A stretch of DNA of 64,000 nt, taken from the IMG/VR virus record IMGVR_UViG_3300034356_001764, positions 16,204 through 80,203 of that record. One strand, written 5' to 3'. This DNA comes from a virus. Shown here piece after piece: positions 6,502 to 22,314 of this stretch. Below the pieces are notes generated by a model that did not search any database, was not told where the DNA came from, and worked only from the letters and a program-made list of their open reading frames with translations. Numbering within the stretch: the first letter of the stretch is position 1; each line of letters starts with the position of its first letter. The position numbers were made by a program, and so were the translations under genes.

Positions 6502-9500
6502 TTATAAATATTCAACTTCTCCACCATTAGCAATAAAGTTTGCTAATTCTTCTTCTGTCATATCAACTTCATCCCCTTCTACATAGTCAGGATCTTCATT
6601 AAGATAACTATTTTGACCACCCATTTGTGCAGATCTACTATTCCAAGTTTGACCCATTTGATCTGGTCTATACAAACCAGTATTGGTATCATAGTCACCA
6701 CGGTCTCTACTAGGATCACTTGCATATAGATTATCAGCAGTAAGATTTTTATACATTTCTTTCTCGTTCTTTCTATTCTGCATTCTATCAATAAATCCTA
6801 AAGCTCCTTTAGCAGCTGCATTACCTGTTAACAATGCACCTTGTACTGAAGCATTGTTCATCCCAGCTTTAGTTTTAAAGTCATATGTTACATCACCTTC
6901 TGGCTCATAAACTTTTTGAGTTTGCTGTCTTAAAGCTTGATTTGGATCTATAGTATATTGTTTTGGATCTTGTGATTGATTTCTTGTAGGATTATCAACA
7001 TTCATGAAACTTGTTAAAGATGATTCATCTAAACCTTGAATACCAGGGTTAAGAGATAACATATCAACATCTGTAGTTCCTGCCATTGCTGGATTATTAG
7101 TATATACTACTGGAGATTGAACACCATTCTGAGCAGTAGGTATAAACTTTCTTAGACCACCACCATATTGTTTCTTTATTCCTTTTTGATTAGTTACATA
7201 TTGATTGTAGATTCTATCATATGTTTCAATGTCTTTAAGATTACTAAAATCAGGAACTACCCCTACCTCTTTTGCAAAAGCCATCCTAGCTTCATTTGCA
7301 GGTATATTCCATTTCTTAGCCCAATCACTAACAAACTGATTTACTTTTGAAGACTTATCACTAATTTTATTAAAAGCATCTTCACTCTCATACCAATCAC
7401 CATCTTTCCATATTCCTTCATTCTCAGGAACTGCTCCTGTTTTTTGAGAATCAGATTCTAAATTTGGCATTTGTTTATATCCCCATGGACTTTTTTGAAG
7501 TTGTTGATTTATCATTAGCTCTTCTGGAGATACAAGAAGGTTATTTAATTTATTACTTTGTTTAGGAGCTGTATCATAGTTAGCTTGACTATCAAAATCT
7601 TCTTGTGTAGCAGGCACCTCTTCAAAATATTTTTCATATCTTTTACCAGCCATCAACGGTCTTTGTCTTCCTGCTTGTCTATCACCTCTATCCATTTCTC
7701 TTTGAGATAAAGCCATAGGACCTTTTCCAGGTAGTACTCTTTGTTCATCAGAACCATCTAAACTAATCATTGGTTTAGTTGGATCAGAGCTTTCATTACT
7801 AAAAGTAACTGAATACTTCTTAGGTCTTCCGCTTAATAAACCTGTTTTTTGAACATTGATATTTTTAATCTGTGCATTTTGTCCAAGATAACCAGGAATC
7901 TGTTGTCCAGTAGCATCACGTGCACCCATATATTGAGTACGGTAATTTGTATTTAAATTGGCAGGAATTAAGTTTTTAAACAAACCTCCTCTTTGAAAGT
8001 AAGCATCTGTTACATCTTCTGAGCCTGTGTAATCAATATCAGACTGGTCAATATAAGCAAGTGATGGATCATCATTTCCTCCATAAACAAATCTTTGAAG
8101 ATTACCATACTCATCAGAAAAAGGATCTTGTACAATACCACCCTGTTGGAAAGTTGAACCGCCAAATTTATTTTCTATCATGTCACCACCAAAACCATCA
8201 TTCCAGCTTTCTTCACTTTCCTTACCAGATCTATTTGGTAATTCATTCCAAGGAACATAAATTACACCACCATAATCTTGTGATTGTTCAACAGCAGCAA
8301 AACTTTTTTCAGGAATTATTTTGCCGTTAGCATCTCTTACAATCTGATATCTTGCAGGTTTTACTGTCCCCCAATTTGTTTTATATGTAGATTCAAATGA
8401 AGTAGCTTGTTCACCTTTTTTAGTGTTCCATTGTTTTTCATCACTACCTTCTTCAAATTTTCCAGTATTAGGATTAAATCCATAGTTTTTACTACCTACA
8501 GGTCTTCCCCATTGGTCTTTTTTAACTTGAGGAACTGTTGGTTTTACTTTAGCTTTTGGCTGAATGTAGGGTATAGCATTTTTTTCTAATGCATTTACTC
8601 TACCTTCTACATCTCCAGAAGAAACTTTTTGAAATGAATTTCCTGTACCAGTTGTATCAATGTACCACTGATTATTTTCTTTCTTGTAAATTGCAGTCTT
8701 ACTTGGATATGAGTAAACACCATCTGCACGTTTCTGAACATTAACTTCTTTTTGACCTTTTACTTGATCTTTAACAACTTGTTTTTCTTTTGCTGTTTGA
8801 GAACTATTTACAGTAACCGGAGTTTCAGTTCCAGGAGTTTTAACTTCAGTAGTTGCAACTGTTTCTGTTGTACCATCTGGTTTTACTTCAACTTTTTCCT
8901 CAACCTTAACATCTTTATTAGTTGCCTCATTACCTGGGGTAACAGCAGCTACATCTTTATTAGTTTGACTATTTACATAAACAGCATTATCTTCTACAAT
9001 TTTTCTTGCAGGAGTCTTTTTAGCACCAGTATAACCATAACCATAGAAACCTGGTCCACTACCTGGCATACCACTACCTGGCATAACAGATGGCATTTGC
9101 CCAAAGTTAACTGAGTATTCTTTTGGTCTACCAAATATACCTGAACGTCTTACATCCATAGATTCTATTGGTGGATAACCTTGACCAAAGCCTCCTGGTA
9201 TTCTTGGAACTCTTGGTTCTCTATTGAACAAACCTCTTCTTTCTTGACCCTCTTGATTTCTTCTTCTAAATAATCCACCAAACTGAGCTTCATCAAGCAT
9301 CTCATCATCTTCAGAATAATTCATTGGAGCTTGAGACATCCCCTGTTGCATCATTTGTTGTTGCTGCATCATTTGATCATACTGTTGTTCAGCTTGTTCT
9401 TTAGCAACAGCTATCTGACTTTGATTCTTAAGAGTTCCAATGTAATTATCTAAGATACCTCTTCTTACATTATTTCCAATTGGATCAGATTGATCTGCTT

Positions 9501-10443
9501 TTTTGGTAAGGTCATTAGGATTATTATTTCCTTGATCCCCACCCATTTGTTTTTTAACTAACTTCAATACAGAATTTACATAAGCACTCTTACCTTTTTT
9601 GTAAGCACCACCTTTTCTAAATTCACTCTCATCATAGTTTTCTTCTTGTGGTTCTGAATCATCCATATCCATCATTGGAGAAGAGTCAGGATTCATATTG
9701 CCATATGAAACACCACTATCTTGTGAAGTTTCAGGTGCAGTAAACTCTGGTCTTTGCCAAGCTTCTCCAGTTGCTACATCATAACCTCCACTCATCATGT
9801 CAGACATGTTTGCAGGCAAGTATGCTTCAATTCCTGGAAATACAATTGGATACTGACTTTCTACTTCCGCACCTTCTTGTGCTCTCATGTAGCCACCTCT
9901 CATCATTACTACTTGAGAAGCAACATCAGAATCATCATCTTCTATTTCATCATCTTCATTAGCAACTTCATTTGCCATATCATTATTCATGTCATCACCA
10001 TAGAAGTCTTCTTCAGTTTCTTGAACCGGATTCATTACTGTTTCTTCCTGAGCATCTTCTGGATCTCCTCCTGTAACTTCTTCATCTGATGATTCTTCAG
10101 AATCTTCTTCTTTCTGAGCTTCTGATTGTTCTTCAAGATACGTGTATATCTGATTTACCAAGTTAGTTGCTTCCATTGGATCTTTACCATACACATTCAC
10201 CAACTTAACAACTATCTCTTCTTTTGGTCTTGAGTTACTAATGTCTTGCATTACTAATGACGCAAGCTGATTATCATCAACTTGTTGTGCTTGTCCAGCT
10301 TGCCCTTGACCAGCACCCGGATATGATAATTCTTCTGCACTAGGTGTACCACCCATTTGAGCTTTACGTAAAAACTGGGCAGTCTTATTTAAAAACTGTC
10401 CTTCACCTGTTGGGCTCTTATAGATTCTGACTCTTTTTTTCAT
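6502..10443 (-). CDS. Low-complexity modular virion cargo protein (1313 aa)
   Basis: Acidic and Q/M-rich disordered segments separated by about 12 xxGG motifs; cargo-block location. Confidence 0.55.
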   Translation of the reverse strand: MKKRVRIYKSPTGEGQFLNKTAQFLRKAQMGGTPSAEELSYPGAGQGQAGQAQQVDDNQLASLVMQDISNSRPKEEIVVKLVNVYGKDPMEATNLVNQIYTYLEEQSEAQKEEDSEESSDEEVTGGDPEDAQEETVMNPVQETEEDFYGDDMNNDMANEVANEDDEIEDDDSDVASQVVMMRGGYMRAQEGAEVESQYPIVFPGIEAYLPANMSDMMSGGYDVATGEAWQRPEFTAPETSQDSGVSYGNMNPDSSPMMDMDDSEPQEENYDESEFRKGGAYKKGKSAYVNSVLKLVKKQMGGDQGNNNPNDLTKKADQSDPIGNNVRRGILDNYIGTLKNQSQIAVAKEQAEQQYDQMMQQQQMMQQGMSQAPMNYSEDDEMLDEAQFGGLFRRRNQEGQERRGLFNREPRVPRIPGGFGQGYPPIESMDVRRSGIFGRPKEYSVNFGQMPSVMPGSGMPGSGPGFYGYGYTGAKKTPARKIVEDNAVYVNSQTNKDVAAVTPGNEATNKDVKVEEKVEVKPDGTTETVATTEVKTPGTETPVTVNSSQTAKEKQVVKDQVKGQKEVNVQKRADGVYSYPSKTAIYKKENNQWYIDTTGTGNSFQKVSSGDVEGRVNALEKNAIPYIQPKAKVKPTVPQVKKDQWGRPVGSKNYGFNPNTGKFEEGSDEKQWNTKKGEQATSFESTYKTNWGTVKPARYQIVRDANGKIIPEKSFAAVEQSQDYGGVIYVPWNELPNRSGKESEESWNDGFGGDMIENKFGGSTFQQGGIVQDPFSDEYGNLQRFVYGGNDDPSLAYIDQSDIDYTGSEDVTDAYFQRGGLFKNLIPANLNTNYRTQYMGARDATGQQIPGYLGQNAQIKNINVQKTGLLSGRPKKYSVTFSNESSDPTKPMISLDGSDEQRVLPGKGPMALSQREMDRGDRQAGRQRPLMAGKRYEKYFEEVPATQEDFDSQANYDTAPKQSNKLNNLLVSPEELMINQQLQKSPWGYKQMPNLESDSQKTGAVPENEGIWKDGDWYESEDAFNKISDKSSKVNQFVSDWAKKWNIPANEARMAFAKEVGVVPDFSNLKDIETYDRIYNQYVTNQKGIKKQYGGGLRKFIPTAQNGVQSPVVYTNNPAMAGTTDVDMLSLNPGIQGLDESSLTSFMNVDNPTRNQSQDPKQYTIDPNQALRQQTQKVYEPEGDVTYDFKTKAGMNNASVQGALLTGNAAAKGALGFIDRMQNRKNEKEMYKNLTADNLYASDPSRDRGDYDTNTGLYRPDQMGQTWNSRSAQMGGQNSYLNEDPDYVEGDEVDMTEEELANFIANGGEVEYL

Positions 10444-10499: not shown

Positions 10500-13400
10500 T
10501 TAGTCAATTTCTTCAATTACATAACCATCTTTAATATATCTATTAATCTCTGCTTGTGTAAGATTTGCTACCATCCCTCCTTCTTTAGCTTTAACTGCAC
10601 CCTTTACTAAGGCTTTAGTTCTACTTCCAGACGGATCTTTTATAGGAACATATGTATTACCTGTTGATTTCCCGGTGTTAATATACCATTTACCATTTGA
10701 ATCTTTCTTATAAGTTACTCCAGGTCTTTCAGGATATTTATAAACTGTACTTTGGAGTGTAACTTTCTTAGTATAATCAGGTGCTACAAATGGCTTCAAC
10801 TTATTTGCATCTTTGTATGGATTATAAACAGCAGTAGACTCAGTAGGTACAAGTTTTGAATAAGCAAAATTTGGATTACTCTTTTCATACTCAGCTTGTT
10901 TTTTATTTTTTTCTGCTATGTCTTTACGAACCTGTTCTCTTTGAGCATCCTCACTAGCTTTTTCTCTTGCTGTAATTCCTTTTTGTACTATACTATATTC
11001 TTTTTGTAATTGATTAGTTGAACTTGTATTACCTATTATTTCATTAGCTTGCTTCAATACATTATTACTATAATCTATATCAAAGTTATTAATATATTTT
11101 TGATACTTCTCTCTCTTATACCAATCAGAACCTGCTTGCCAAGACTTAGCTAAAATATAAGATGCAGGTATCTTTCCTTTGTATAGACCAGTCTTAACAT
11201 TAAAGTCTTTATCTTTTTTAAGTTTTTCATAATTGTCCAAAAGAATAATTGCACCCGCTTTAGTCTGTGCTTCAATATCAAATGTTCCAATATCTTTAGG
11301 ATCAACTCCAAGTTTTTCTAACTTTTTACCAAGGGCATTTAATGAACCATCTTTATTTACAAAGTTTAAAGTAGGTTTCATTTGATAATAACCAATACTT
11401 GCTTCATCTCCTTCAAAGGCTCCTTGACCAAGAACATCTTTATAAACAGTAGCTGCAACTTGTTTAGGAATTCTTTTATTTGATTCACCACCTGAACTTT
11501 CATTCTGCATGATTCCACCTACAAGGATCTGTCCTACAAAGTTTGTATCCTCTTGACTATAACCTAGATTTTTAATGTTTCTAACATTGTTATTAATAAC
11601 ACCTGTTGCTTGTTTTTGACGCTCAGTTGCTGTTTTACCTGCTACTAGTTTTAGTTTAGGATCAACTGTGCTATAATATCCTGTGTTCTGTAATCCAGAT
11701 AAGTCAGCATTTTTAAGACTTGGGGATCTTACAATAGATGCAACTTGATAAGTAAATACACTTTTGTCATGATCATCAAGACTTATTGGCTCATCAAGTC
11801 TTTTGATAAAAGCTTTTCCTTTTTCAGAAGCATGCCAAATTAGTGGCGTACCATCTTTATCTTTACCAACTACAAATCCAAGGTGCTCAACATTTTCATT
11901 TTCTAAACCACCTTTTGTTTCTGAAGCAAACTCTCCACTTGTTTTTGTATTCATTCTATTGAGCTGTACATAATCACCAACTTGTAATTTTGCATAAACA
12001 TCTTTAGGAACCTTTGGCATCTTAGCCATATCTCTTTCTGTAGTTTCATAAATAAGATCTCCACCTTTATTAAGAACATCAGATTTATTAAACCAAGCAT
12101 CATTTGCCCATATATCTCCATCAGCTATTTCACCAAGTAAGTTACTCATCTTAACACTTACATTGAATGAACATCCTTTACCTTCAACACAAACTTCTTC
12201 TCCTTCCCCTTTATCAAGATATGGTAAGTAACCTACTCCAAGATTTTTGTTAACCGTATACTTAGTACTTTGTGATTGTTTTTTTGGTTCAATTGTTTTT
12301 ACCTTAGATGGAGGAATACCAGAATTAAATGCATCTAATGCCATCTTTGTTCTGTTACCCATAATACCATCAACTCCATCTCTACTTGGACCTGAAGCTC
12401 CAATGTTATATCCAGCTGCTACTAGTTTCTTTTGAATTGCTTTAACATCACCTGATTGTTCAATCTTTGGCATTGCTATTTTCTCTACTTCTTTCTTAGT
12501 AAGTGTTGGTTGATCTACTACTGGAGTGTTCACTAGGGTAGCTGGTTGCTGAACTGTTGTAGCTACCACAGGTTCAGTAACAACTGGAGGTGCAACAAGA
12601 TCACCTGTAGGCATCATATCAGGTGCTAACATAGGAGTCACAACCGGACTCTGACTTTGTTGCATAGTTGGAACAGTTGGTACACCACCATCTTGAAACT
12701 TAACTTCCTCTATAGTAAACCCACCTTTTCTATAGTACTCTATTTCTTCATCATCAAGATCTAGTTCAATAAAACCACCATCTTCTTCTTGTTGTAAAGC
12801 TTTACCTCCTAATGATTTAGTAGATTTTTTAGGAAGCATTTCATAAATACCTTTCTCATTTTGTTTAGCTAAACCTTGTCTTTCTAAACTTTGCCATGTG
12901 TTTCTTCCTGGAGCTACTCCATTATTTTCAACAAAGGCACCCCATGATCTAACTTTATTTCCTTCTGGTAATGATTCATTTAACTGCTTATAAACTTCTG
13001 TTCCTATACCTTGTCTTTGAAATTTAGGATCAACTCCTATATCCAATGTTTCAAAATCACCACTGGATAATCTATTACCTGAAACTTCACCAACTTTTGT
13101 ATCTCCTTTATAAACCCCAAAAGTCTCCATGTCTAATTCTTGAGATCTTACATTATCAGGTAAAAGTTTTATATTCATATTTTTAGGTGCACTTGTAATT
13201 TTTTTACTAGTTCCAAGTACATCTTCTGCGTAAGAGCCTACTTTACCAAATTTACCAACTTTACCTAACTTACCCAATGAACCAATTCCTGGTAACACAC
13301 CTGCTACATCTAATGTTTTATCTAACCCTGACCAATATTGATTTCCTGTAAGAGGATTTATATTAGTATTTCCTGTACCAAATGCAGAACCTATTCCTGG

Positions 13401-15773
13401 ATTAGCAGACAGTGCAACATCAGCAACTGTATTACCTACTCCTTTAAGTGTACCCATGGGATCTTTTGCAATACGCAATAATGCTGGAGCTCCAGTTAAT
13501 TCTAGCACTGCATCAGTAACTCCCATATTAGCTTCTTTTCTAGTATTAGCTTGATCTACTGCATCCTGATATTGGCCTTTATAACCTTCCTTCATTGTAG
13601 CTTGGTCATACTTACCCCAACCTCTTTCATCATACAGTCTGGCAAAGTCAGAAGTTGATATCTTACCTTCTTGAACCTTTCTTCTAGCACGTTCATAATC
13701 TTGAGCTCCTTGATTATGTTCTTTAACTCCTTGTGTAAATCTTTGAAGTTCTTTTATAGAAAAGTCTTTAGGTTTTAAATCTTGATACCAAAGCTTTCTA
13801 CCTTGAGCAGTATTCATAAGAGCTTTACTCTTATCCATTAACTCTTTCCAGCGTTCTTTATCTGAAGCTTTTGCATAAGCAAATGTTTCCGCTTCATCTT
13901 GAGATTTATCTATAATGGGTTGTTGTGAACCTTCTTGAGCTTGAGGTAGTTCTTCTACTATATAACCACCTTTTCTATACTGTTCAATTTCTTGAGGAGT
14001 TAAATCCATTTCAACATACCCACCATCTTCTTGCATGGCCATCTTGTCATTAACTCCGTATGCCCATCTTTTATATGCAGTGCGGCCTTCTCTTAATGGA
14101 AGACTTGGTATTTCTTCACCACCTTTTTGTGCATGCACTAATCCTTGACCACCACATTTATGACATGTAGTAACATCATCACTACCATCTGCAGCATTCC
14201 ATTTCCAACCACATTTTTTACAGGTTACTTTCTTAGTAAGTAAAGCACCTCCTTTTTGTTCTTTATTTAAAAAAGCTGGTGATACTGATTTATAATGTTC
14301 TGCAAAATATTGGGCATCTGCAGGATTATTAAATCTTATTGCTTCATTAGATTCTGGACCATAATCACCAAGCATTAACTGACCATTCTCATTTTGTATT
14401 TGAGGTACAGCATAATTATCCATACTAGCCATATAGTGAGTACCTGTATTACCATTTTCAAATTGATATGGATTATCAGTAGGGACAACCATTCTTTTTG
14501 CAGCAGGATTGCCAAATTCATTTGCATAAGCAAGCTTTGCTTTCATCATACCACTTGTATAATCTTGCAAATGAGATGGTAAAGGAATATCATATTCTCC
14601 TTCTTCATTATGTGAATCTACTACAGCTTGTCCTTCTGGAGTAGTTTCTCTCCAGTTTCTATACTCATTAAGTTTATTTTGAATTAAATTATAATCATCA
14701 AGTGTCCAACCTTTAGGATTTCCAATTTGATTTTCTATGGCTTTAATTTCTTTTCCCCATTCTTGTGGAGTTGTTGAACCACCAAATTGAAACAGTTGTC
14801 CACTAAATCCAAGTTTATCAATTACAGATTGTTTATTATCAATATGTCTATCAATACCAAGCTCTCTTACTTTAGCTACCTTAGCTTCATCTGAACCCAT
14901 TGCAAAGATTCTATCTTCTGGGATACCTGCATTACGTGCCCTAGTGATCATATCTGGTGTTACTTCTTCTCTAGCAGATATAATATACTTCTGATCACTA
15001 GGTGTATTCATTGCCATTTCCATTCCTGCATCAGTTGTAAGAGTATCATCATAGTCAAATGATACAATACCACCATCTGCGTAGAAACTTGCATTAGGAT
15101 CAAAGATTTTTCTTTTTCTAGATTTAGGTACTTCAAATAAAGGATTCAATGCAAACAATCTATTTGTTGCTTCAAGACTTCTTGAATAAGCTTTTGATTT
15201 AATTCCTTTTGATCCAGTAGGTATTCTTACTTTAGGAGTTTGCCCACCTTTCTTAAAATCTTCAGGTTGCTCAAGCTCTGGTTGAAGTCTGTAATCAGTT
15301 GTTAATTCTTCCCCAGCTTTAATATCTCTTTTTGCATAGACATATCTTTCATTACCTTTTTTAACACTATACATGTTAGGTGTGTCAGAGTGATTATGCA
15401 TCTTTCCAATCTCTCCTACTGGTTGACCATTTCTATGCGCTAAACCTATAAGTTGATTTTTTTTAAAAAAAGTATTTGCAAACAATCCTTTATCAGCTCC
15501 TGCAATTTTTGATTGTTTAACTACTAAATGACTGTTAGCTTTATTACCTCCTTTTTTTAATTCAGGATATTCATCAACATACTTAGCACCCGGAAAATTA
15601 TATTCCTCCTCTGGATGCATCATTACTGGTGAACCAAAATCTGGATAAGCCATGACAGGATATGGAACATTGTCCATGGTTATGTCATTACCTGGAATTC
15701 TAGTTGGTACTCCAGGATGTGCCCACTGACCTCTTGGATCAACAATAATTTTAGATTTAGATTTCTTATTCAT
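10500..15773 (-). CDS. Polyvalent cargo protein: SET, HAD-like, Zn ribbon, GNAT, PG-binding, CHAP/NlpC-like and lysozyme/SLT-like domains (1757 aa)
   Basis: Motifs: GLFA...NHSDTPN...DIKAGEELTTDY (SET); SFDYDDTL...ISAR...HIDN (HAD); CKKC...CHKC; VDPKFQRQGIG (GNAT motif A); VKAIQKKL...DGIMGNRT (PG-binding); GCS...HLGFV...WH; QNESSG...GYYQM. Confidence 0.75.
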   Translation of the reverse strand: MNKKSKSKIIVDPRGQWAHPGVPTRIPGNDITMDNVPYPVMAYPDFGSPVMMHPEEEYNFPGAKYVDEYPELKKGGNKANSHLVVKQSKIAGADKGLFANTFFKKNQLIGLAHRNGQPVGEIGKMHNHSDTPNMYSVKKGNERYVYAKRDIKAGEELTTDYRLQPELEQPEDFKKGGQTPKVRIPTGSKGIKSKAYSRSLEATNRLFALNPLFEVPKSRKRKIFDPNASFYADGGIVSFDYDDTLTTDAGMEMAMNTPSDQKYIISAREEVTPDMITRARNAGIPEDRIFAMGSDEAKVAKVRELGIDRHIDNKQSVIDKLGFSGQLFQFGGSTTPQEWGKEIKAIENQIGNPKGWTLDDYNLIQNKLNEYRNWRETTPEGQAVVDSHNEEGEYDIPLPSHLQDYTSGMMKAKLAYANEFGNPAAKRMVVPTDNPYQFENGNTGTHYMASMDNYAVPQIQNENGQLMLGDYGPESNEAIRFNNPADAQYFAEHYKSVSPAFLNKEQKGGALLTKKVTCKKCGWKWNAADGSDDVTTCHKCGGQGLVHAQKGGEEIPSLPLREGRTAYKRWAYGVNDKMAMQEDGGYVEMDLTPQEIEQYRKGGYIVEELPQAQEGSQQPIIDKSQDEAETFAYAKASDKERWKELMDKSKALMNTAQGRKLWYQDLKPKDFSIKELQRFTQGVKEHNQGAQDYERARRKVQEGKISTSDFARLYDERGWGKYDQATMKEGYKGQYQDAVDQANTRKEANMGVTDAVLELTGAPALLRIAKDPMGTLKGVGNTVADVALSANPGIGSAFGTGNTNINPLTGNQYWSGLDKTLDVAGVLPGIGSLGKLGKVGKFGKVGSYAEDVLGTSKKITSAPKNMNIKLLPDNVRSQELDMETFGVYKGDTKVGEVSGNRLSSGDFETLDIGVDPKFQRQGIGTEVYKQLNESLPEGNKVRSWGAFVENNGVAPGRNTWQSLERQGLAKQNEKGIYEMLPKKSTKSLGGKALQQEEDGGFIELDLDDEEIEYYRKGGFTIEEVKFQDGGVPTVPTMQQSQSPVVTPMLAPDMMPTGDLVAPPVVTEPVVATTVQQPATLVNTPVVDQPTLTKKEVEKIAMPKIEQSGDVKAIQKKLVAAGYNIGASGPSRDGVDGIMGNRTKMALDAFNSGIPPSKVKTIEPKKQSQSTKYTVNKNLGVGYLPYLDKGEGEEVCVEGKGCSFNVSVKMSNLLGEIADGDIWANDAWFNKSDVLNKGGDLIYETTERDMAKMPKVPKDVYAKLQVGDYVQLNRMNTKTSGEFASETKGGLENENVEHLGFVVGKDKDGTPLIWHASEKGKAFIKRLDEPISLDDHDKSVFTYQVASIVRSPSLKNADLSGLQNTGYYSTVDPKLKLVAGKTATERQKQATGVINNNVRNIKNLGYSQEDTNFVGQILVGGIMQNESSGGESNKRIPKQVAATVYKDVLGQGAFEGDEASIGYYQMKPTLNFVNKDGSLNALGKKLEKLGVDPKDIGTFDIEAQTKAGAIILLDNYEKLKKDKDFNVKTGLYKGKIPASYILAKSWQAGSDWYKREKYQKYINNFDIDYSNNVLKQANEIIGNTSSTNQLQKEYSIVQKGITAREKASEDAQREQVRKDIAEKNKKQAEYEKSNPNFAYSKLVPTESTAVYNPYKDANKLKPFVAPDYTKKVTLQSTVYKYPERPGVTYKKDSNGKWYINTGKSTGNTYVPIKDPSGSRTKALVKGAVKAKEGGMVANLTQAEINRYIKDGYVIEEID

Positions 15774-18700
15774 TATCTTAATGATGCTTGATTCTTACTA
15801 TTTACTACTTTAACTATCATGTTAACACTACCAGAAATTTCTTTCCTTAAAGTTATATAATTTAAGTAATGTCTGAATTTTTTTCTTTGTAGTTCAGCTT
15901 TGTTATAATCTAAACTTGTAAGATTTAATTCTCTACGGTAGCCATCAGGTAATGTTATCCATGCAATTTCTTCTGGATAGTTACCAAGTAACTCAGTTGT
16001 TCCTGGAACTAATGGTCCTGTTGGAGGATAACCTGATCCTAGTGGAAACTCTCCTCTATCTCTTGTTACATCCCAGAATTGATTAAATCTATATTTGTTT
16101 TCTTCTTTTGAAAACAAGATATCAAATCCAGGTAGACCAACCACTGTATCCCTAATGATTATAGGAATAGATGGATTGAATTTAGGATACTCTAAACTTA
16201 GTGTTATATTATTTTTAGGAAATACATTTAAGTTTAAATATCCAGATACTTGTTCTGAGTTATAAATAATTGCTGTGTCAAAGTTATTATCTAGCACATG
16301 GAATTGATCAACACAATTAGCTGCTCTTTTGTAAGATTCAAGTATATATTCAAATGATTTAACTACTGTTGGTGATTGACCTGTAATAATAGGAGTTTCA
16401 ATTTCAAATGGATAATCTTTTCCATAGAAGTTGCAATAAGAATTACATACATAATTATGTTTCCAGAAACTATTTTTCTTTGTTGTTAAGAAAACAGTTT
16501 TACTTGGCATTACTAAATCCGGATGCCAGTCATGAAATGAAATCCACATTTCATTCTTAGGGTCATAACTTGCTGTCCAAGAAGCACTTTCAAATATAGT
16601 AGGGTCACCAAGTAAGTATCTTCCTCTACCATCTAATGTAAAGAAATCTCCTTGTCCTTTTTTATAACCTTTACCTTTAATCATTTGACGGCAATCAACT
16701 ACTAATGGAACATAGTCAACTCTATCTAAGTCTATACCATCTTTAACAATGTAATCTTTCTTAGTAAAATAAAGTATAGAGTTTTCATTATCATATACTG
16801 CCTGTACACCTACTCCAGCTACTGGATTATCTTTCCATGGATAATCAGGAAACTGAGTTGTAAGTTTACACTTTAAGAATAGTGAATACCACCACTTTAA
16901 TCCAACTTGAGATATCTCTTTTAATCCTCCTGCATAACTAAATATCTTACCTTGATTCTGTGATGCATAAAATAAGCCTGCTGGAGTAGAGATAACTGCA
17001 AGTCTATTTTGAGATGATCCATACTCATATGGCTTATCTGCATTTGAAACAGACTGACCGGGTTGAGAAAATAAACCACCATCACCAATAGTAATCTTAG
17101 TTCCTAAATCTGTTTGAAGTGTATCAACACCTTGAAACATTTGTGGACTATCATTCTTAAATGTAATGAACAAACCACTTTTGTTTATAGACTTAACACC
17201 AGATATTTGAGACTTAAATTCTCTATAGTTATTTGGTAAAAATATAAACCAGCTATCTTTAAATGATTCATCTTGTTGTTGTAATGAATAATAAATTCTA
17301 TCTGGAAAATATGTATAACATAGTTGAGATACATTTGGGTTGTAGTATCTATTTTGTAAATTACCAGAAGAGAAATACTGATTGTATAGTTTACTTACAC
17401 TTAATGAATAGTCATATCTAAATGTGTTACCTCTTGTAATGTTTTCTGGATTAATTTCAAACATTCTAGCAAGCTCAGTATAACGGTAAGGATCATAATG
17501 CTTTTCCCATTCATTATCTCCAGCTTCTCTATAATCTACTATTACATCTGACTCAACAAAGAAGTCTCTTACAGAAGAAACTGCTAAATAGAAAAATGAA
17601 TCCTTTGGTCTAAATACACCTGGATAATCTCCTGCTGTATCATTTGTATAATCATATCCTGGATTTGTAGGTGTTGGACCATGATCCATTCTATAAAATC
17701 TTGTTGGAAAAGCTCCTGTTCCAGGTACTGGTGAATTCCAGTTACTAGGTCCAAGATCTGATACTTCATATTTTCTGGAGTTAACATAAAATCTTGGTTC
17801 AGGAATCATTTGATGAATTGCATAATTATATTCAAAACCATCAGGTTGACCATATAACCAATCATAGAAAAAGAACATTGAATTCTTTTCTGTATATCTA
17901 TTTACATAAACATCTCCACCAAAAAATATTGGGCTAATATTTATTTTTTTAAGTATTACTGCAAGGTTACATGATCCACATTGATTATAAGGACCCCAGT
18001 TTGATAAAGTATTATAATCAAACTTTTGCTCACATGGAGTTATTACAATTTGTTTTATAGATTGCAATTGACCATACTGATTTTGAATTCTTACTTTCAT
18101 TGCCGCATAGTGACTAGCAATTGGTAAAGTAAAATTAGCATCTACAATCTCAAAATTTGGACCTACATTTGGATTAGGAATATAAGGATTTAATGTCAAG
18201 GGATCAACTAAACCATTTTGTTGAATATTACCAAGAGTAGTTAATGACTGATCTACATATCTTGAAGATTCAATAATATAGTTTGGTCCAATTGCACCAC
18301 CAATATAAGGCCCCGCATAATTTGGACCAGCCTCTGTTCTTATTACAACTGTGTCAGATCTTTTAAGATTATTAATACTATAAGATCTGAAAGTACCTGC
18401 TACATTATAATACCCAGGCATTTGCATAATGTTATCTCTTATGTAAGAACTATCTTCAATTTTAAATCTAAATAGTTTTGTACTACTAGGAGATCTCATA
18501 TCTGAGTAGAACCCATGAGCAATCATTTGTGATGCATACTGTGTATAAGGAATAATTGCTCTAATAATATCAGCTGCAATATTTGCTCCTTCAGAAAAAT
18601 AATATAGTGCTTGATTCAAACCACCTAAAATTCTAAGAGGGATTGGTAAGTAATCTAATTTAGGTACTGTATAAGTATACTCATCTCCAGATGCAGAAAT

Positions 18701-21271
18701 TCCACCTGTTGCCGTTGCTGTAGTTATTGCAGCATCTTTTGTTGTATTGATTCCAGCTAAGATAGGTCTTGTACCTGTTACAATATATGATAATGCATCA
18801 AGAATTGAACCACCTGCAGAATAATAAGTTGTTAATGCAGCATCATAAGTAACAGCTGCAGCTTGACCAACAACAGCTCCTGCAACAGCAATAGGATATA
18901 TAGTTAAACCTGTGGCATCTGATGCATAACCTGGTGCTGTAAAGTTTGCAAGTTTTTTATCATACTTTCCAATAAATGAAATTATTGCTTCTGCAATACC
19001 AAGTAGGAACATAGGCAAAACAGTAAGATCAGAAAATAATTTAAACTTAGGATGTTGATTGGGTTCAATAAATCTTTGAGTTGATGCTCCTCTTAAATAT
19101 CCATAAAGCTTAAGTTCAGTTCCTGATAAAAATGGAGTTTTAAAACTTGTATCTGGAGAATGAAAACTTACAAAATCTGATGGAACATTCTGATCAAAAA
19201 CACTATCATTATCATTAGGATTTGGAATTCTTATATAAGGATCAATAAAATTTCTATTATGATCACTACCACCTGTTGAATTATAAAAAGGTTTAATAGT
19301 ATTAAATGGATAATTTGCATACATGCCTTTTCTTGGAGCTGCTGGATTACTCACCTGCCCAACAATATCATATGTTCTAAAATTGTTAAGCATTCCCTTA
19401 GCAATGATAGACTTATTACCCTCTCTTGATCCTCTTAAGATCTCATAACCAACAATACCAGGAATATCATTACCTTCATTATCTTTTGGATATGTAATAT
19501 TTTCAAAGAAAACTCCAAGCAATCTAATTTTTAATTCATTAGGTTGATTGCTTAATGTTGGTTTAAAATGATTAGTAAGTTTATTTGCACTTGGATCTAA
19601 ACAGTTATCCGGAAACTTATGATGTCTGATATTATCACCACATAGATCATAAGTATTACTTGGTTGATTGTAAAAGCCTGTCCAACATTGAGCACTTGTA
19701 TTCCAAATTTCTGGTTTATCATCAGGATACTGTTCAGTAGATTCCCAGTAACCCATGTTTCCAACTGCAATTACTGTACCTCCGTCATCTGTTGTAGTTG
19801 ATAACCCACTTGGTATTGTTCCTATTGAAGCAGTATTAAATACTTCAAATACATTATCACTTGCACTTAATGCATTTTGATTAAAACTTATTCCAGTTTC
19901 TGGTAATCCATTGTATAATCCTGGAGCTCTTCCTGGAATATGATAAGAAGATGATTTATCACCTGTATCATATACCCATCTAATAAAGAAACAATAAACT
20001 TCATCTCTTAAGTAACTTGCCTTATTTCCACTTTTTACATAATAGTCAGAAGGATATTCAACTGAAGCCCACTTGGCTGTAATTAGATTAGCTAATGGTT
20101 GGTAGTTAAAATCAAATTTAGAAGTAGGTCCAACTCTCAGTAAGTAATTATTTACTTCAGATATCTGATCAGATTTTTCAAAAACTGGTGTCTGAATTGG
20201 AAGCTGCTCTAGTGGTACAGTTATTAAATCTTCTTTTATTTGATCTAAAGCAATAACATTTGTTCTAGTAGAATATATACCAACTTGTCTTGCAACAGTT
20301 CCTTGGTTTATATTTTGTACAATGACCAAGATAAACTCATCAAAGTTTACACTGTCAGCTTCTACTTCAAGTACAAGTGAACCTTGTAAATCTTGAGGAG
20401 TCCAAATTTGTTGGTTGTTACTTTGAGAAAAATAGTCTGTAACTTTTTGACCTTTAATGCTATAAGCAATAACTGCAAAGTAAGTTCCATTTCTTAATGT
20501 ACCACCTTGATTACCAAGTGTTAAATTAAGACATGGTGTCTCCATTAATCTTGCTAATCTAATTTTATCACAATCTAACTGATTAATATCAACACATGTA
20601 ATGCAACCTATTGGATGGCCAGAAGGCCAAACATCTGGTTGTGTTTCTGATACACCAGTTTCATCAGTACAAATTTGTTTCCATTTTACTCCTGGCCACA
20701 AAAGTAGATTTACACCATTTGAGTAATAATTAATATTTACTTGTCCCACCCAACTATAGTTAGCAGCTGGCCAAGTTTGAGGATCTCCTACATTTAAAAC
20801 TCTATCTGGATTTAATGCATCTGCAAAATATACTTGCCAAGTACAATCTTCTTTCTCTCTTGAAGCTCCGCTTATTAAATATCTTTTATCAAACTTAAGA
20901 CATGCATCTTGTACAATAGGTCTGTAAACACAAGTATCAGTTTCTAGTAAACCAATCTCTGACATAACAGGTATACCAGTTGAATCATGACCTGCTGTAA
21001 ACACTATCCACTTATCTGAGAATAATTGTATAGTGCCAATAATGTATTTGTCTACTGCAATTGCAGGCATTGTTAAACCTGCTGTTGCACATAGAATATT
21101 AGATTGCTCATTAGAAAGGGTTCCAATATTACCCTCATCTGTATTATTTGTTGCATTTCTAGCATGTGTCCACATTCCTTCTCCTACAAAAGAAGGGTCA
21201 GAATCTTTGTTCATCCCCTTAGAAAAACTACGGGTGACGTTCTGTGTTGTATTTTGTAAACCTTTTGCCAT
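15773..21271 (-). CDS. Tail stabilisation/muzzle-like protein (P22 gp10-like, crAss muzzle position)
   Basis: About 1830 aa, beta-rich. N-terminal FSKGMNKD...ARNA and C-terminal WTASY...WISFHDW motifs. Likely start MAKGL at 21271 (TAATG overlap with the upstream stop). Confidence 0.75.
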   Translation of the reverse strand: MAKGLQNTTQNVTRSFSKGMNKDSDPSFVGEGMWTHARNATNNTDEGNIGTLSNEQSNILCATAGLTMPAIAVDKYIIGTIQLFSDKWIVFTAGHDSTGIPVMSEIGLLETDTCVYRPIVQDACLKFDKRYLISGASREKEDCTWQVYFADALNPDRVLNVGDPQTWPAANYSWVGQVNINYYSNGVNLLLWPGVKWKQICTDETGVSETQPDVWPSGHPIGCITCVDINQLDCDKIRLARLMETPCLNLTLGNQGGTLRNGTYFAVIAYSIKGQKVTDYFSQSNNQQIWTPQDLQGSLVLEVEADSVNFDEFILVIVQNINQGTVARQVGIYSTRTNVIALDQIKEDLITVPLEQLPIQTPVFEKSDQISEVNNYLLRVGPTSKFDFNYQPLANLITAKWASVEYPSDYYVKSGNKASYLRDEVYCFFIRWVYDTGDKSSSYHIPGRAPGLYNGLPETGISFNQNALSASDNVFEVFNTASIGTIPSGLSTTTDDGGTVIAVGNMGYWESTEQYPDDKPEIWNTSAQCWTGFYNQPSNTYDLCGDNIRHHKFPDNCLDPSANKLTNHFKPTLSNQPNELKIRLLGVFFENITYPKDNEGNDIPGIVGYEILRGSREGNKSIIAKGMLNNFRTYDIVGQVSNPAAPRKGMYANYPFNTIKPFYNSTGGSDHNRNFIDPYIRIPNPNDNDSVFDQNVPSDFVSFHSPDTSFKTPFLSGTELKLYGYLRGASTQRFIEPNQHPKFKLFSDLTVLPMFLLGIAEAIISFIGKYDKKLANFTAPGYASDATGLTIYPIAVAGAVVGQAAAVTYDAALTTYYSAGGSILDALSYIVTGTRPILAGINTTKDAAITTATATGGISASGDEYTYTVPKLDYLPIPLRILGGLNQALYYFSEGANIAADIIRAIIPYTQYASQMIAHGFYSDMRSPSSTKLFRFKIEDSSYIRDNIMQMPGYYNVAGTFRSYSINNLKRSDTVVIRTEAGPNYAGPYIGGAIGPNYIIESSRYVDQSLTTLGNIQQNGLVDPLTLNPYIPNPNVGPNFEIVDANFTLPIASHYAAMKVRIQNQYGQLQSIKQIVITPCEQKFDYNTLSNWGPYNQCGSCNLAVILKKINISPIFFGGDVYVNRYTEKNSMFFFYDWLYGQPDGFEYNYAIHQMIPEPRFYVNSRKYEVSDLGPSNWNSPVPGTGAFPTRFYRMDHGPTPTNPGYDYTNDTAGDYPGVFRPKDSFFYLAVSSVRDFFVESDVIVDYREAGDNEWEKHYDPYRYTELARMFEINPENITRGNTFRYDYSLSVSKLYNQYFSSGNLQNRYYNPNVSQLCYTYFPDRIYYSLQQQDESFKDSWFIFLPNNYREFKSQISGVKSINKSGLFITFKNDSPQMFQGVDTLQTDLGTKITIGDGGLFSQPGQSVSNADKPYEYGSSQNRLAVISTPAGLFYASQNQGKIFSYAGGLKEISQVGLKWWYSLFLKCKLTTQFPDYPWKDNPVAGVGVQAVYDNENSILYFTKKDYIVKDGIDLDRVDYVPLVVDCRQMIKGKGYKKGQGDFFTLDGRGRYLLGDPTIFESASWTASYDPKNEMWISFHDWHPDLVMPSKTVFLTTKKNSFWKHNYVCNSYCNFYGKDYPFEIETPIITGQSPTVVKSFEYILESYKRAANCVDQFHVLDNNFDTAIIYNSEQVSGYLNLNVFPKNNITLSLEYPKFNPSIPIIIRDTVVGLPGFDILFSKEENKYRFNQFWDVTRDRGEFPLGSGYPPTGPLVPGTTELLGNYPEEIAWITLPDGYRRELNLTSLDYNKAELQRKKFRHYLNYITLRKEISGSVNMIVKVVNSKNQASLR

Positions 21272-22314
21272 TACATTAGTCTTGAAGTTCCTACTCTTCT
21301 CCAATATGGATCATTTGGACTATAACTTTTAAACATATCATAGTATTTTGCATACTGTGCTCTTCTGTTTGTCCACCATACTTTTTCCATTTCTCTAAAG
21401 TTTGGTGTATTAACTAAACTTAGTGCTGCATTTCTTGCTGCTCTAAACTCTGGAATAATAAGCTGTAGCTTTTGAGCCATGTCTTCTCCATTGAGAGCTA
21501 AGTTCTCTATGATTCTTTTCTTCAATGCATACTCATAGTAGTCATTAATCAATTCATGATTAGGAACCATTAGATTATTATTCTCATCCGTCAACTCTCC
21601 CTGGTAGTTTATATAAACATGACCCGTTTGAAAAGTTGTATATAAGTAATTGTCTTTTAACCAACCTTGATTAGCTGTATTGTAATAAAGATTTGGGCAT
21701 TCACAATCTATGTTCTGACTCTGCTTCATTCTTAGAGGAACTAAAGATTTATAAACTCTTGATTGAACCGGATTAATTACTTGGATAATTTCATACTGAT
21801 CACCTTTACAGTTCATGAATACTCTTGGAGCAATACATGTATCCCCGTAAGGATTATTTGGATCATACTCAGTTGGTATTGGATCTACTATAGGATGATT
21901 AAGATCACATGCAGCAGTCTTGTTACATGGATTAGAATTACATGTTCTACAATTAACTGTAGGAGCTACACACTGATCTACTGTAGCTGGAAATTCTCTG
22001 TAAGGAATCTCTTGAATATTAGTTCCAGAAACTTGTCCACCATAACCGGTCATAACAGTATATTCACCACACACCATTCCATAGTTCCATACATAGAAAT
22101 CATCAGGAAGTTTAACTTTTCCATGACAAACTTCTAATACAACTTCCTTAGTTTGATTTATTCTTAAACCAAGATCATAATTTAACCTGCGGGCAACTTT
22201 AATTAATTGCTGAGGTTCAATCATGTTCTCTAAGGCTAGAGTATTTAAGTCAATACTAACATCTTCTAATAAAGAATCAAATGTCCGGTATTTTAGTGTG
22301 TAATTGAAATCCAT
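21271..22314 (-). CDS. Tail tubular/ring protein with Cys-rich insertion
   Basis: KLPDDFY and YINYQG...MVP motifs; immediately upstream of the muzzle-like gene. Confidence 0.65.
   Translation of the reverse strand: MDFNYTLKYRTFDSLLEDVSIDLNTLALENMIEPQQLIKVARRLNYDLGLRINQTKEVVLEVCHGKVKLPDDFYVWNYGMVCGEYTVMTGYGGQVSGTNIQEIPYREFPATVDQCVAPTVNCRTCNSNPCNKTAACDLNHPIVDPIPTEYDPNNPYGDTCIAPRVFMNCKGDQYEIIQVINPVQSRVYKSLVPLRMKQSQNIDCECPNLYYNTANQGWLKDNYLYTTFQTGHVYINYQGELTDENNNLMVPNHELINDYYEYALKKRIIENLALNGEDMAQKLQLIIPEFRAARNAALSLVNTPNFREMEKVWWTNRRAQYAKYYDMFKSYSPNDPYWRRVGTSRLM

What the first reader, a model, noticed from the sequence alone, without database searches (positions are those of the whole stretch)
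10500..15773. Polyvalent effector protein carrying SET, HAD, Zn ribbon and GNAT domains
SEEN, N to C: LKKGG, SET (~15290-15535), FKKGG, a short basic segment, YADGG, HAD (~14795-15068), FQFGG, an unknown domain, EQKGG, Zn ribbon (~14140-14240), AQKGG, a linker, an unknown segment with an amphipathic GKLGKVGKFGKVG stretch, GNAT (~12830-13130), EEDGG/FQDGG, then a PG-hydrolase block. KNOWN: polyvalent proteins of phages and plasmids are thought to be delivered with the DNA to counter host defences. INFERENCE: an injected multi-enzyme toolkit. A SET domain in phage virion cargo is unusual.
Basis: partly seen in the sequence, partly recalled or inferred. Interest (0 to 1): 0.8.

Follow-up and report, generated by a model that had tools for sequence, protein, structure and literature searches.

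The report
Modular enzyme-carrying crassvirus cargo protein
A lake-water crAss-like phage encodes, right after its tail-tip gene, a 1757-residue bead-on-a-string protein that combines a lysine methyltransferase, a small phosphatase, an acetyltransferase and three cell-wall-cutting domains, and it is one member of a large, module-swapping family of proteins the phage probably packs into its particle and injects.

Summary

Domains:
- SET: confirmed by Pfam (38.6 bits, cut-off 22.4), with NHS and ELxxDY motifs.
- HAD: missed by Pfam. It has DxDxT and a fold like the T4 Pnkp 3'-phosphatase (Z 10.2).
- GNAT: marginal (21.0 bits, cut-off 20.7).
- C-terminus: PG_binding_1, then an NlpC/P60 fold, then a lytic-transglycosylase fold.

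Context: a crAss-like virion operon, in the order ring 2, ring 1, muzzle homologue, this gene, then five more large genes. That is the slot of crAss001 cargo protein C1. Some relatives carry the Pfam crAss_CARG1 domain in the same polypeptide.

Family: a conserved ~105-aa module of unknown function defines it (593 cluster representatives). Members swap SET, ADP-ribosyltransferase, GNAT, HAD and many lysin modules. Module joints sit at [YFM]xxGG motifs, and a ~30-aa acidic "cap" recurs three times and ends the protein.

Injection, cleavage at GG and the enzyme targets are untested, and no protease was found. This scan had already noted the GG-junction motif in at least five other crAss-like genomes. 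I rate it a new variant of a known kind.

The parts
15549..15773 (-). aa 1-75: N-terminal conserved module of unknown function, ending in LKKGG
   Evidence: Shared by 51 of 119 homologues. No Pfam or NCBIfam hit.
15246..15548 (-). aa 76-176: minimal SET lysine-methyltransferase module (HNHS 126-129, ELTTDY 156-161), ending in FKKGG
   Evidence: Pfam PF00856, E 1.5e-9, above the cut-off. The motifs are conserved in the family consensus. Present in 71 of 119 homologues.
15069..15245 (-). aa 177-235: basic conserved module (net charge +8), ending in YADGG
   Evidence: Shared by 83 of 119 homologues. Charge. No family hit.
14778..15068 (-). aa 236-332: capless HAD-like phosphatase module (D240-x-D242-x-T244, S266, K298/301, D312), ending in FQFGG
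   Evidence: Motifs conserved in 21 stand-alone homologues. AF2 pLDDT is about 90-97 here. VIA gives T4 Pnkp 3'-phosphatase Z 10.2, with many HAD hydrolases at Z 8-9.8. BFVD 'HAD-like' proteins match at E 4e-10 and 45% identity. Pfam was negative.
14568..14777 (-). aa 333-402: helical module that precedes the conserved core in some members
   Evidence: Present in 37 of 119 homologues. Predicted helices.
14247..14567 (-). aa 403-509: family-defining conserved alpha+beta module of unknown function, ending in EQKGG
   Evidence: About 75% identical in otherwise unrelated architectures. 593 cluster representatives carry it, one copy each. 21 invariant residues. No PDB, Atlas, CARG1 or gp45 relation.
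14118..14246 (-). aa 510-552: CxxC...CxxC zinc ribbon, ending in AQKGG
   Evidence: Sequence. Weak zinc-ribbon Pfam hits. Present in 56 of 119 homologues.
13938..14030 (-). aa 582-612: acidic cap module, copy 1
   Evidence: Cap HMM E 1e-14.
13164..13937 (-). aa 613-870: charged helical region followed by a Gly-rich, mildly hydrophobic stretch that includes GKLGKVGKFGKVG. No clear transmembrane helix.
   Evidence: Hydropathy maximum 1.06; 17% Gly in 751-870. No family hit.
12804..13163 (-). aa 871-990: probable GNAT acetyltransferase (QRQGIG 919-924)
   Evidence: Acetyltransf_1 at 21.0 bits against a cut-off of 20.7, and Acetyltransf_7 at E 1.4e-4. Weak RimI, MshD and PaiA hits. The fold was not modelled.
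12696..12785 (-). aa 997-1026: acidic cap module, copy 2, followed by FQDGG
   Evidence: Cap HMM E 7e-10.
12294..12473 (-). aa 1101-1160: PG_binding_1 domain, after a Pro/Thr/Val-rich linker (aa 1027-1100)
   Evidence: Pfam 24 bits against a cut-off of 23 on the segment.
11649..12248 (-). aa 1176-1375: NlpC/P60-fold peptidoglycan peptidase or amidase (invariant C1195, C1201, H1297, H1314)
   Evidence: VIA Z 5-6.8 to NlpC/P60 enzymes over model residues 100-270. Weak AmiA-like and Amidase_6 hits. Invariant residues in 40 sequences.
10974..11648 (-). aa 1376-1600: lysozyme-like / lytic-transglycosylase fold (invariant E1425-S, and SIGYYQ 1459-1464)
   Evidence: VIA Z 7-8.7 (3w6b, 5o2n, 7lam, MltE), with T7 gp16 at Z 5.0. 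Invariant residues.
10593..10973 (-). aa 1601-1727: long helix followed by a small beta module that is also present in the next gene
   Evidence: AF2 secondary structure. A similar stretch occurs in ORF C and in the L025 homologue.
10503..10592 (-). aa 1728-1757: acidic cap module, copy 3, forming the protein's C-terminus
   Evidence: Cap HMM E 2e-14. G1732, G1750 and Y1751 are at least 90% conserved in 120 homologues.
15773..21304 (-). Upstream gene (1843 aa): muzzle-protein homologue. It is context, not part of the protein.
   Evidence: Follows the Ring_2 and Ring_1 Pfam genes. Collinear weak BLASTP to crAss001 gp44 (E 9e-5 and 5e-4). Conserved upstream of the homologue in 26 loci.

Best explanation
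The gene encodes a modular cargo (ejection) protein of a freshwater crAss-like phage. It is made late with the virion proteins, stored inside the particle, and expelled through the tail at infection.

Its C-terminal third (PG-binding, NlpC/P60 and lytic-transglycosylase domains) would open the cell wall locally, as virion-borne lysins of other podoviruses do.

The N-terminal two thirds carry enzymes that need cytoplasmic cofactors: SET needs SAM, GNAT needs acetyl-CoA, and the Pnkp-like HAD phosphatase works on phosphorylated substrates. These would modify host or phage targets in the first moments of infection.

The gene is the hypervariable slot of an otherwise conserved cargo operon. Modules are exchanged between phages at short [YFM]xxGG joints. 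A ~105-aa conserved module and one to five copies of an acidic ~30-aa cap stay constant; I infer that these load or dock the protein in the particle.

What is shown: the domain identities, the synteny, and the mosaicism. What is inferred: packaging, ejection, the compartment of action, and the roles of the conserved module, the cap and the GG joints.
For: Gene position:
- The order is Ring_2 (PF25702, E 1e-22), Ring_1 (PF24228), a 1843-aa muzzle homologue, this gene, then ORFs of 1313, 767, 996, 2131 and >3653 aa.
- This mirrors crAss001 R1 - muzzle gp44 - C1 gp45 - C2 gp46 - giant RNAP-related proteins. In crAss001 these were found in virions by mass spectrometry, and gp45 also by cryo-EM (PMC10172136).
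- The TAATG overlap with the muzzle gene points to co-expression.

Links to known cargo and polyvalent proteins:
- Others carry ART-PolyVal.

Domain evidence.

The HAD-like module has separate ties to capsid interiors. In BFVD its closest structural relatives include proteins named XkdF or prohead protease (E 1e-9 to 3e-6).

Hypervariability:
- In 35 IMG/VR loci the neighbours A, C, D and E align nearly full length, while B shares only some modules.
- The Pfam content of homologues differs.
- Contigs of co-occurring relatives in the same lake metagenomes join the modules differently, at aa 228|409, 495|595 and 228|1009.

Joints: the breakpoint-to-GG association and the motif logo. Glycine codon usage at joints equals the background, so selection acts on the peptide and not on a DNA signal.

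Cap: 207 of 247 family proteins have it, and 124 have it at the very C-terminus.
Against: - There are no proteomic or expression data for this phage. No RNA run holds the gene.
- P0001 itself has no CARG1 domain and no detectable similarity to crAss001 gp45, gp46 or gp47.
- No transmembrane helix is predicted.
- One polypeptide would have to act both in the periplasm and in the cytoplasm. That needs either cleavage or an envelope-spanning chain, and neither is shown.
- The GNAT call is marginal. The top structural hit of the HAD model is a universal stress protein (Z 11.6), so the fold alone does not prove HAD.
- The function of the most conserved module is unknown.
Confidence: 0.65

Rival explanations
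1. Polyprotein reading. The protein is cut at the [YFM]xxGG joints and/or after the acidic caps, during head maturation or after ejection. This would release separate enzymes (about 1-612, 613-1026 and 1027-1757, or smaller pieces), much as adenovirus and ASFV core polyproteins are cut after Gly-Gly.
For: - The joints have a constant short peptide context ending in GG and sit at module borders.
- Internal caps end like true C-termini (...GGY[IV]VEE[IL]D) and are followed by xYQ[DK]GG.
- The PG hydrolases and the SAM/acetyl-CoA enzymes need different compartments.
- Iyer et al. argue that polyvalent proteins must be processed (PMC5512222).
Against: - No protease family was found in any ORF tested in the 80-kb record.
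- The only HExxH lies in the >3653-aa ORF and has no family or PDB support. About one such motif is expected by chance.
- In crAss001 C1, similar A[FY]GG motifs flank the two resolved segments, yet the authors model one chain running from the tail through the portal (PMC10172136).
- The record is only 68% complete, so a protease could lie outside it.
Confidence: 0.25
2. Structural-lysin reading. The protein is a tail-tip or internal virion lysin that stays with the particle or in the envelope. On this reading the N-terminal SET, HAD and GNAT modules are not delivered to the cytoplasm, and are passengers, decoys or extracellular binders.
For: - The best-conserved large block is the ~680-aa PG-degrading C-terminus, present as a unit in 43-44 of 119 homologues.
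- Other family members carry alternative lysins such as Amidase_2, GH24, GH19, glucosaminidase, VanY and YkuD.
Against: - The catalytic motifs of SET, HAD and GNAT are kept across the family. That is unexpected for passengers with no access to SAM or acetyl-CoA.
- Many members have the conserved module but no recognisable lysin.
- ART-PolyVal modules in relatives also point to cytoplasmic targets.
Confidence: 0.08
3. Artefact reading. The long ORF is a chimeric assembly, or a decaying fusion of several genes.
For: The architecture is mosaic, and many co-occurring variants in the same samples could mislead an assembler.
Against: - The identical 1757-aa protein is recorded on 4 contigs.
- Five runs hold 98-100% of its sampled words.
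- There is no stop or frameshift over 5.3 kb.
- Hundreds of relatives have equally long ORFs ending in the same cap.
Confidence: 0.02

Closest known systems
Cargo protein C1 (gp45) of Bacteroides phage crAss001 (Bayfield et al. 2023, PMC10172136; Pfam PF25725 crAss_CARG1)
   Same: - Same gene slot, directly after the muzzle gene in a crassvirus virion operon.
- Family members carry the CARG1 portal-binding domain.
- gp45 also has recurrent aromatic-GG motifs (A[FY]GG at 209, 332, 427 and 562) that flank its two structurally resolved segments.
   Different: - P0001 has no CARG1 domain and no sequence similarity to gp45.
- It is twice as long.
- It carries seven recognisable enzyme or binding domains that gp45 lacks.
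- In this genome the best CARG1-like motifs are in the 767-aa gene two genes downstream.
Polyvalent proteins of phages and conjugative elements (Iyer, Burroughs, Anand, de Souza, Aravind 2017, PMC5512222)
   Same: - Many unrelated enzymatic domains in one polypeptide.
- Encoded next to virion genes.
- Domain content is polymorphic between relatives.
- Lysozyme-type and ART-PolyVal modules occur in the family.
   Different: - There is no MPTase zincin peptidase, helicase, DNA methylase or ParB-type module in P0001.
- "SET domain" does not occur in that paper's text.
- The [YFM]xxGG joints, the acidic cap and the conserved 105-aa module are not features described there (the searches for 'linker' and 'cleavage' found nothing relevant).
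Virion-borne peptidoglycan hydrolases of podoviruses, such as the N-terminal lytic transglycosylase of T7 gp16
   Same: A lytic-transglycosylase fold inside an internal or ejected virion protein. T7 gp16 (6yt5_G) is among the structural matches at Z 5.0.
   Different: Here the transglycosylase is C-terminal, is paired with an NlpC/P60 domain and a PG_binding_1 domain, and is fused to cytoplasm-type enzymes.
Chlorovirus vSET (PBCV-1 A612L), a minimal SET enzyme packaged in virions
   Same: A ~100-120-aa SET domain without pre- or post-SET regions, carried by a virus particle to act on host proteins at the start of infection. The chlorovirus review PMC7019647 turned up; the details are from my own knowledge.
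   Different: That host is eukaryotic and the target is histone H3. Here the host is a bacterium, the target is unknown, and packaging is not shown.
T4 polynucleotide kinase/phosphatase, 3'-phosphatase domain (PDB 5uj0, 1ltq)
   Same: The best HAD-superfamily structural match of the HAD-like module (Z 10.2 and 9.4, 97 residues aligned, 16% identity), with the DxDxT nucleophile motif.
   Different: There is no kinase domain. The module is about 95 aa and capless. No Pfam PNK3P hit; the only pointer is an Atlas lead at 0.84.

Membership tests
SET-domain lysine methyltransferase (PF00856) | Profile match above the curated cut-off | tested here: met
   38.6 bits against 22.4, E 1.5e-9. Up to E 4.5e-17 in family members.
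SET-domain lysine methyltransferase (PF00856) | NHS motif and ELxxDY motif with the catalytic Tyr | tested here: met
   HNHS 126-129 and ELTTDY 156-161. Both are kept in the family consensus.
SET-domain lysine methyltransferase (PF00856) | SAM-dependent methyl transfer to lysine | not testable with these tools
   Needs an enzyme assay.
HAD phosphatase superfamily | Motif I DxDx[TV] at the end of strand 1, plus motifs II (S/T), III (K) and IV (acidic) | tested here: met
   D240-Y-D242-D-T244, S266, K298/K301 and D312 are conserved in 21 stand-alone homologues.
HAD phosphatase superfamily | Rossmannoid HAD core fold | tested here: met
   VIA gives T4 Pnkp phosphatase Z 10.2, with most of the rows at Z 8-9.8 being HAD hydrolases. 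The top row, however, is a universal stress protein at Z 11.6. Foldseek gives KdsC at probability 0.97-0.99 but E about 0.05. BFVD 'HAD-like' proteins match at E 4e-10.
HAD phosphatase superfamily | Significant sequence-profile match | tested here: not met
   No Pfam or NCBIfam hit. The PDB profile search has HAD 4eze as its best hit at only E 0.098.
GNAT acetyltransferase | Profile match and the acetyl-CoA motif A (Q/R-x-x-G-x-G/A) | tested here: inconclusive
   Acetyltransf_1 at 21.0 bits against 20.7. Acetyltransf_7 at 22.6 bits, below its cut-off of 27. QRQGIG 919-924. RimI-type hits at E 0.01-0.7. The fold was not modelled.
NlpC/P60 peptidoglycan peptidases | Papain-like fold with Cys-His-His/polar catalytic residues | tested here: met
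   Z 5.0-6.8 to more than 15 NlpC/P60 structures over aa 1184-1354. C1195/C1201, H1297 and H1314 are invariant in 40 sequences. Which Cys is catalytic was not resolved, and the Z values are modest.
Lytic transglycosylase / GH23 lysozyme-like | Lysozyme-like fold with a catalytic Glu (E-S motif) | tested here: met
   Z 7.0-8.7 to 3w6b, 5o2n, 7lam, 4hjy and 4c5f over aa 1378-1594. E1425-S1426 and SIGYYQ are invariant. No Pfam SLT hit in P0001.
Crassvirus cargo protein 1 (PF25725 crAss_CARG1) | CARG1 portal-binding domain | tested here: not met
   No hit in P0001 at E<=1, nor in the 80-kb record at E<=10. Present in 2 of 23 and 3 of 26 family members, and in the next gene of one relative.
Crassvirus cargo protein 1 (PF25725 crAss_CARG1) | Gene directly downstream of the muzzle gene in the virion operon | tested here: met
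   with the crAss001 gene order.
Crassvirus cargo protein 1 (PF25725 crAss_CARG1) | Physically present in the virion | not testable with these tools
   Needs virion proteomics or cryo-EM.
Polyvalent proteins (Iyer et al. 2017) | Several unrelated effector domains in one phage or plasmid polypeptide, polymorphic between relatives | tested here: met
Polyvalent proteins (Iyer et al. 2017) | Hallmark processing peptidase (MPTase-PolyVal, PF18818) or other signature polyvalent domains | tested here: not met
   No PF18818 in the record. No signature domain in P0001. ART-PolyVal occurs only in relatives.
Gly-Gly-cleaved viral polyproteins (adenain / ASFV pS273R type) | A cognate protease, and demonstrated cleavage after GG | tested here: inconclusive
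   No protease family was found in the ORFs scanned. The record is 68% complete. Cleavage cannot be tested here. The motif register ([YFM]-x-x-G-G) differs from the adenain site (M/L/I)-x-G-G; the adenain consensus is from my own knowledge.

The most novel reading that the evidence does not exclude
A bacteriophage delivers, from inside its particle, a protein-lysine methyltransferase together with an acetyltransferase and a Pnkp-like phosphatase. These would rewrite modifications on host nucleoid, ribosomal or defence proteins (or heal cleaved RNA ends) before any phage gene is expressed. That would be a bacterial counterpart of the virion-packaged chlorovirus vSET. The enzymes would be released from a cargo polyprotein by cleavage at the conserved [YFM]xxGG joints.
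Probability: 0.15. Interest if true: 0.85.

Novelty: new variant of a known kind. Interest (0 to 1): 0.62.

Why it matters
Crassviruses are among the most abundant phages known. They carry megadaltons of cargo protein, and apart from the RNA polymerase the functions of that cargo are unknown.

This family shows that the slot next to the muzzle gene is a fast-evolving cassette site for enzymes. These include a SET lysine methyltransferase, a class not so far reported among phage-delivered effectors in the sources I could search.

It gives concrete, clonable modules of about 100 aa each for testing what a phage does to a cell in the first seconds of infection.

It also gives three conserved non-enzymatic elements: the 105-aa module, the acidic cap and the GG joint. 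These probably encode the rules for loading proteins into a crassvirus particle. If so, they could be used to load foreign proteins.

Tried and rejected
- tblastn of the whole protein against 50,697 GenBank phage records: no match.
- PHROGs: no family.
- Conserved module as the C1 portal-binding domain: rejected. There is no relation to CARG1 or to whole gp45 by hhalign, no PDB sequence hit and no Atlas hit.
- Foldseek on the 673-residue C-terminal model gave only weak rows. VIA-align resolved the two domains.
- A first joint alignment of the HAD and conserved modules was misaligned by MAFFT and was not used; A7 was checked by eye.
- The cap HMM does not detect the look-alike stretch in crAss001 gp45, so that resemblance is dropped.
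- DNA-level recombination signal at the joints: rejected, because Gly codon usage at joints equals the background.
- Protease hunt: no Pfam protease in the ORFs scanned, no MPTase-PolyVal, and the single HExxH in the >3653-aa ORF has no support.
- No RNA holder was listed among the sequencing runs.
- The search for related loci with the 120-sequence alignment failed because it had no conserved stretch.
- The Pfam scan of alignment A1 exceeded the size limit.
Full report
**1. The object**

Window 10500-15773 on the minus strand is a single uninterrupted ORF of 1757 aa, P0001. Its ATG shares one base with the TAA of the upstream 1843-aa gene, as TAATG. A 56-nt AT-rich spacer separates it from the next gene. 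The window is part of an 80,203-bp IMG/VR virus record rated 68% complete. The gene occurs at 98-100% of sampled words in five lake-water metagenome runs, and in part in many more from 2020-2024.

**2.

- SET is solid. Pfam PF00856 scores E 1.5e-9 and 38.6 bits against a cut-off of 22.4. The HNHS and ELTTDY catalytic motifs are present and are kept in the family consensus.
- GNAT is only just over the Pfam cut-off (21.0 against 20.7). It has the QRQGIG acetyl-CoA motif, and the weak hits (RimI, MshD, PaiA) are all consistent. I call it probable.
- The zinc ribbon is two CxxC pairs.
- HAD is not seen by Pfam or NCBIfam. Three lines of evidence support it:
  - The 107-aa segment has about 50%-identical stand-alone homologues of 96-165 aa in which DxDxT, IISAR, a Lys and an HxDN motif are invariant or nearly so.
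  - An AlphaFold2 model of aa 229-509 (mean pLDDT 80.7, and above 90 over the HAD part) aligns with the T4 Pnkp 3'-phosphatase at Z 10.2 (rmsd 3.0, 97 residues) and with dozens of HAD hydrolases at Z 8-9.8. The single best row, however, is a universal stress protein at Z 11.6.
  - In the viral structure library it matches "HAD-like domain" proteins at E 4e-10 and 45% identity, and also proteins named XkdF or prohead protease.
- The "PG-hydrolase block" is real and has three parts. PG_binding_1 scores 24 bits against 23. The AF2 model of aa 1085-1757 (pLDDT 71.6) contains an NlpC/P60 fold (aa about 1184-1354, Z 5-6.8) and a lytic-transglycosylase/GH23 fold (aa about 1378-1594, Z 7-8.7, with T7 gp16 at Z 5.0). 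C1195, C1201, H1297, H1314, E1425 and SIGYYQ are invariant in 40 homologues.

**3. Context**

On the same strand, in order, lie:

- the major capsid protein (phrog_11589);
- Ring_2 (PF25702, E 1e-22) and Ring_1 (PF24228);
- an 1843-aa protein that aligns collinearly, though weakly, with the crAss001 muzzle protein gp44 (E 9e-5 and 5e-4);
- P0001;
- ORFs of 1313, 767, 996, 2131 and >3653 aa.

In crAss001 the order is R1 gp43, muzzle gp44, cargo C1 gp45, cargo C2 gp46, then the giant RNA-polymerase-related gp47, gp49 and gp50. All of the proteins after the muzzle were found in virions by mass spectrometry, and parts of gp45 were resolved bound to the portal and the tail barrel (PMC10172136). P0001 therefore sits in the C1 slot.

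**4. The family**

- The 5.8-billion-protein index returns 149 homologues. They share only parts of P0001.
- Coverage is blockwise. Of the 119 listed homologues:

| Module | Homologues carrying it |
|---|---|
| N-terminal module | 51 |
| SET | 71 |
| basic module | 83 |
| HAD | 19 |
| conserved core, aa 403-509 | 86 |
| Zn ribbon | 56 |
| GNAT | 15 |
| ~680-aa PG block (always C-terminal, moves as a unit) | 43-44 |

- A profile of the conserved core finds 593 cluster representatives (318 at E<=1e-30). Each has a single copy, at positions from 1 to about 1370, in proteins of up to 3098 aa.
- Across samples of the family, Pfam finds SET, crAss_CARG1, ART-PolyVal, ADPrib_exo_Tox, GNAT, Amidase_2, GH24 and tail lysozymes, glucosaminidase, SLT, GH19, VanY, NlpC/P60, YkuD and a putative metallopeptidase, DUF6782.
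- The CARG1 hits (E 1.5e-13 and 7.5e-28) tie the family directly to the structurally characterised cargo protein. In one relative CARG1 lies inside the P0001 homologue; in another it lies in the next gene.
- In 35 IMG/VR loci the neighbours (muzzle, C, D, E) align nearly end to end, while the B gene shares only modules. It is the variable slot of a conserved operon.
- The same is visible within the lakes. Contigs of co-occurring relatives join aa 228 to 409 (skipping HAD and the helical module), 495 to 595 (skipping the Zn ribbon) and 228 to 1009.

**5. Joints and caps**

- GG is not over-represented in P0001 alone (18 seen, 15.9 expected). Across 120 proteins it is (1701 against 1229), and its context is [YFM] at -3, [KQAR] at -2 and [KDE] at -1.
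- Of 21,843 internal similarity breakpoints in an all-against-all comparison, 15.7% lie within 3 aa of a GG, against 5.3% of random positions. The median distance is 16.5 aa against 43.5 aa. These are not independent events, so the figures are descriptive.
- Glycine codons at joints follow the background usage, so it is the peptide that is conserved and not a DNA signal.
- crAss001 gp45 has A[FY]GG at 209, 332, 427 and 562. These bracket its two resolved segments, 214-245 and 425-552.
- A ~30-aa acidic module (consensus GG-x-x-x-ELT-x-EEI-x-EY-x-KGGY-I/V-x-EE-L/I-D) occurs at aa 582-612, at aa 997-1026 and at the very C-terminus (aa 1728-1757), and also ends the next gene.
- In the family, 207 of 247 proteins have this module, 124 have it at the extreme C-terminus, and 115 have two or more copies. 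Internal copies are followed by xYQ[DK]GG.

**6. Reading**

Position, operon coupling, the CARG1 and ART-PolyVal relatives and the lysin block all point to a particle-borne, ejected protein. SET, GNAT and HAD need cytoplasmic cofactors or substrates, whereas the lysins act in the periplasm. So the chain either spans the envelope during ejection or is cut.

I found no protease. The single HExxH in the giant ORF is unsupported, and the crAss001 authors model gp45 as one chain. I therefore rank "uncut joints plus docking tags" above "GG-cleaved polyprotein", but I cannot exclude the latter.

The strongly conserved 105-aa module and the cap are the obvious candidates for loading or docking elements. 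This is inference from their conservation pattern only. The module is unrelated to CARG1 or gp45, and its fold was not searchable on its own.

**7. Comparison and novelty**

- The kind of thing is known: polyvalent proteins (PMC5512222) and crassvirus cargo (PMC10172136).
- The following are not in those descriptions, as far as the held library shows:
  - a SET methyltransferase as a recurrent cargo module;
  - the association of a Pnkp-like mini-HAD with capsid-interior proteins;
  - the conserved core, cap and GG-joint grammar.
- The same scan has already flagged the GG-joint motif in at least five other crAss-like genomes, with similar conclusions. That part is therefore not unique to this window.
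- I rate this a new variant of a known kind.

Noticed in passing
window 6167-6340 (-), aa ~55-110 of the 767-aa ORF 4190-6493: The N-terminal domain of the 767-aa gene carries the three signature motifs of the crAss_CARG1 portal-binding domain (NLEAEGGE, GPRHSxGGVP, FIFSDT), with the first two in swapped order. hhalign gives only E 0.004 and probability 8%, and tblastn gives E 3. This gene, about the size of crAss001 gp45, may be the true C1 orthologue.
   Followed up: partly
window 6502-10443 (-), 1313-aa ORF: The next cargo gene ends with the same acidic cap (HMM E 0.0016) and has many [FMY]GG motifs. It also shares a small beta module (Y-x-Y-P ... W-Y-I-x-T) with aa 1677-1727 of P0001.
   Followed up: partly
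L039 (crAss001 MH675552) gp45, aa 209-562: In the experimentally studied C1 protein, A[FY]GG motifs at 209, 332, 427 and 562 bracket the tail-barrel-bound helix (214-245) and the portal-bound domain (425-552). This suggests that the aromatic-GG joint is general to crassvirus cargo.
   Followed up: partly
BFVD hits of model mb4b71550b125; P0121-P0164: The ~95-aa HAD-like module exists as stand-alone small phage proteins. These have an N-terminal M-P-x-P...R-C extension. The module also matches proteins named XkdF or prohead protease in uncultured Caudovirales, hinting that it is a widespread capsid-interior passenger.
   Followed up: no
L038:2-10960 (-), >3653-aa ORF left of the window: The giant terminal cargo ORF has a single HExxH (aa 808 of the open frame) and a weak 2OG-Fe(II) oxygenase match near its C-terminus (E 0.0055). 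Neither is supported further.
   Followed up: partly
window 47188-47982 (-): A 264-aa ORF with a strong PG_binding_1 domain (E 6e-14). It is probably the endolysin, separate from the virion-borne lysin block.
   Followed up: no
window 10500-15773, runs X10, X15, X16, X19: Summed contig depth peaks over the conserved module (14372-14547). Several contigs at 85-95% identity join modules differently, so many related cargo variants coexist in the same lake samples.
   Followed up: partly
window 44415-45248 (-): A 277-aa ORF with a PD-(D/E)XK nuclease domain just over the Pfam cut-off (22.7 bits against 22).
   Followed up: no
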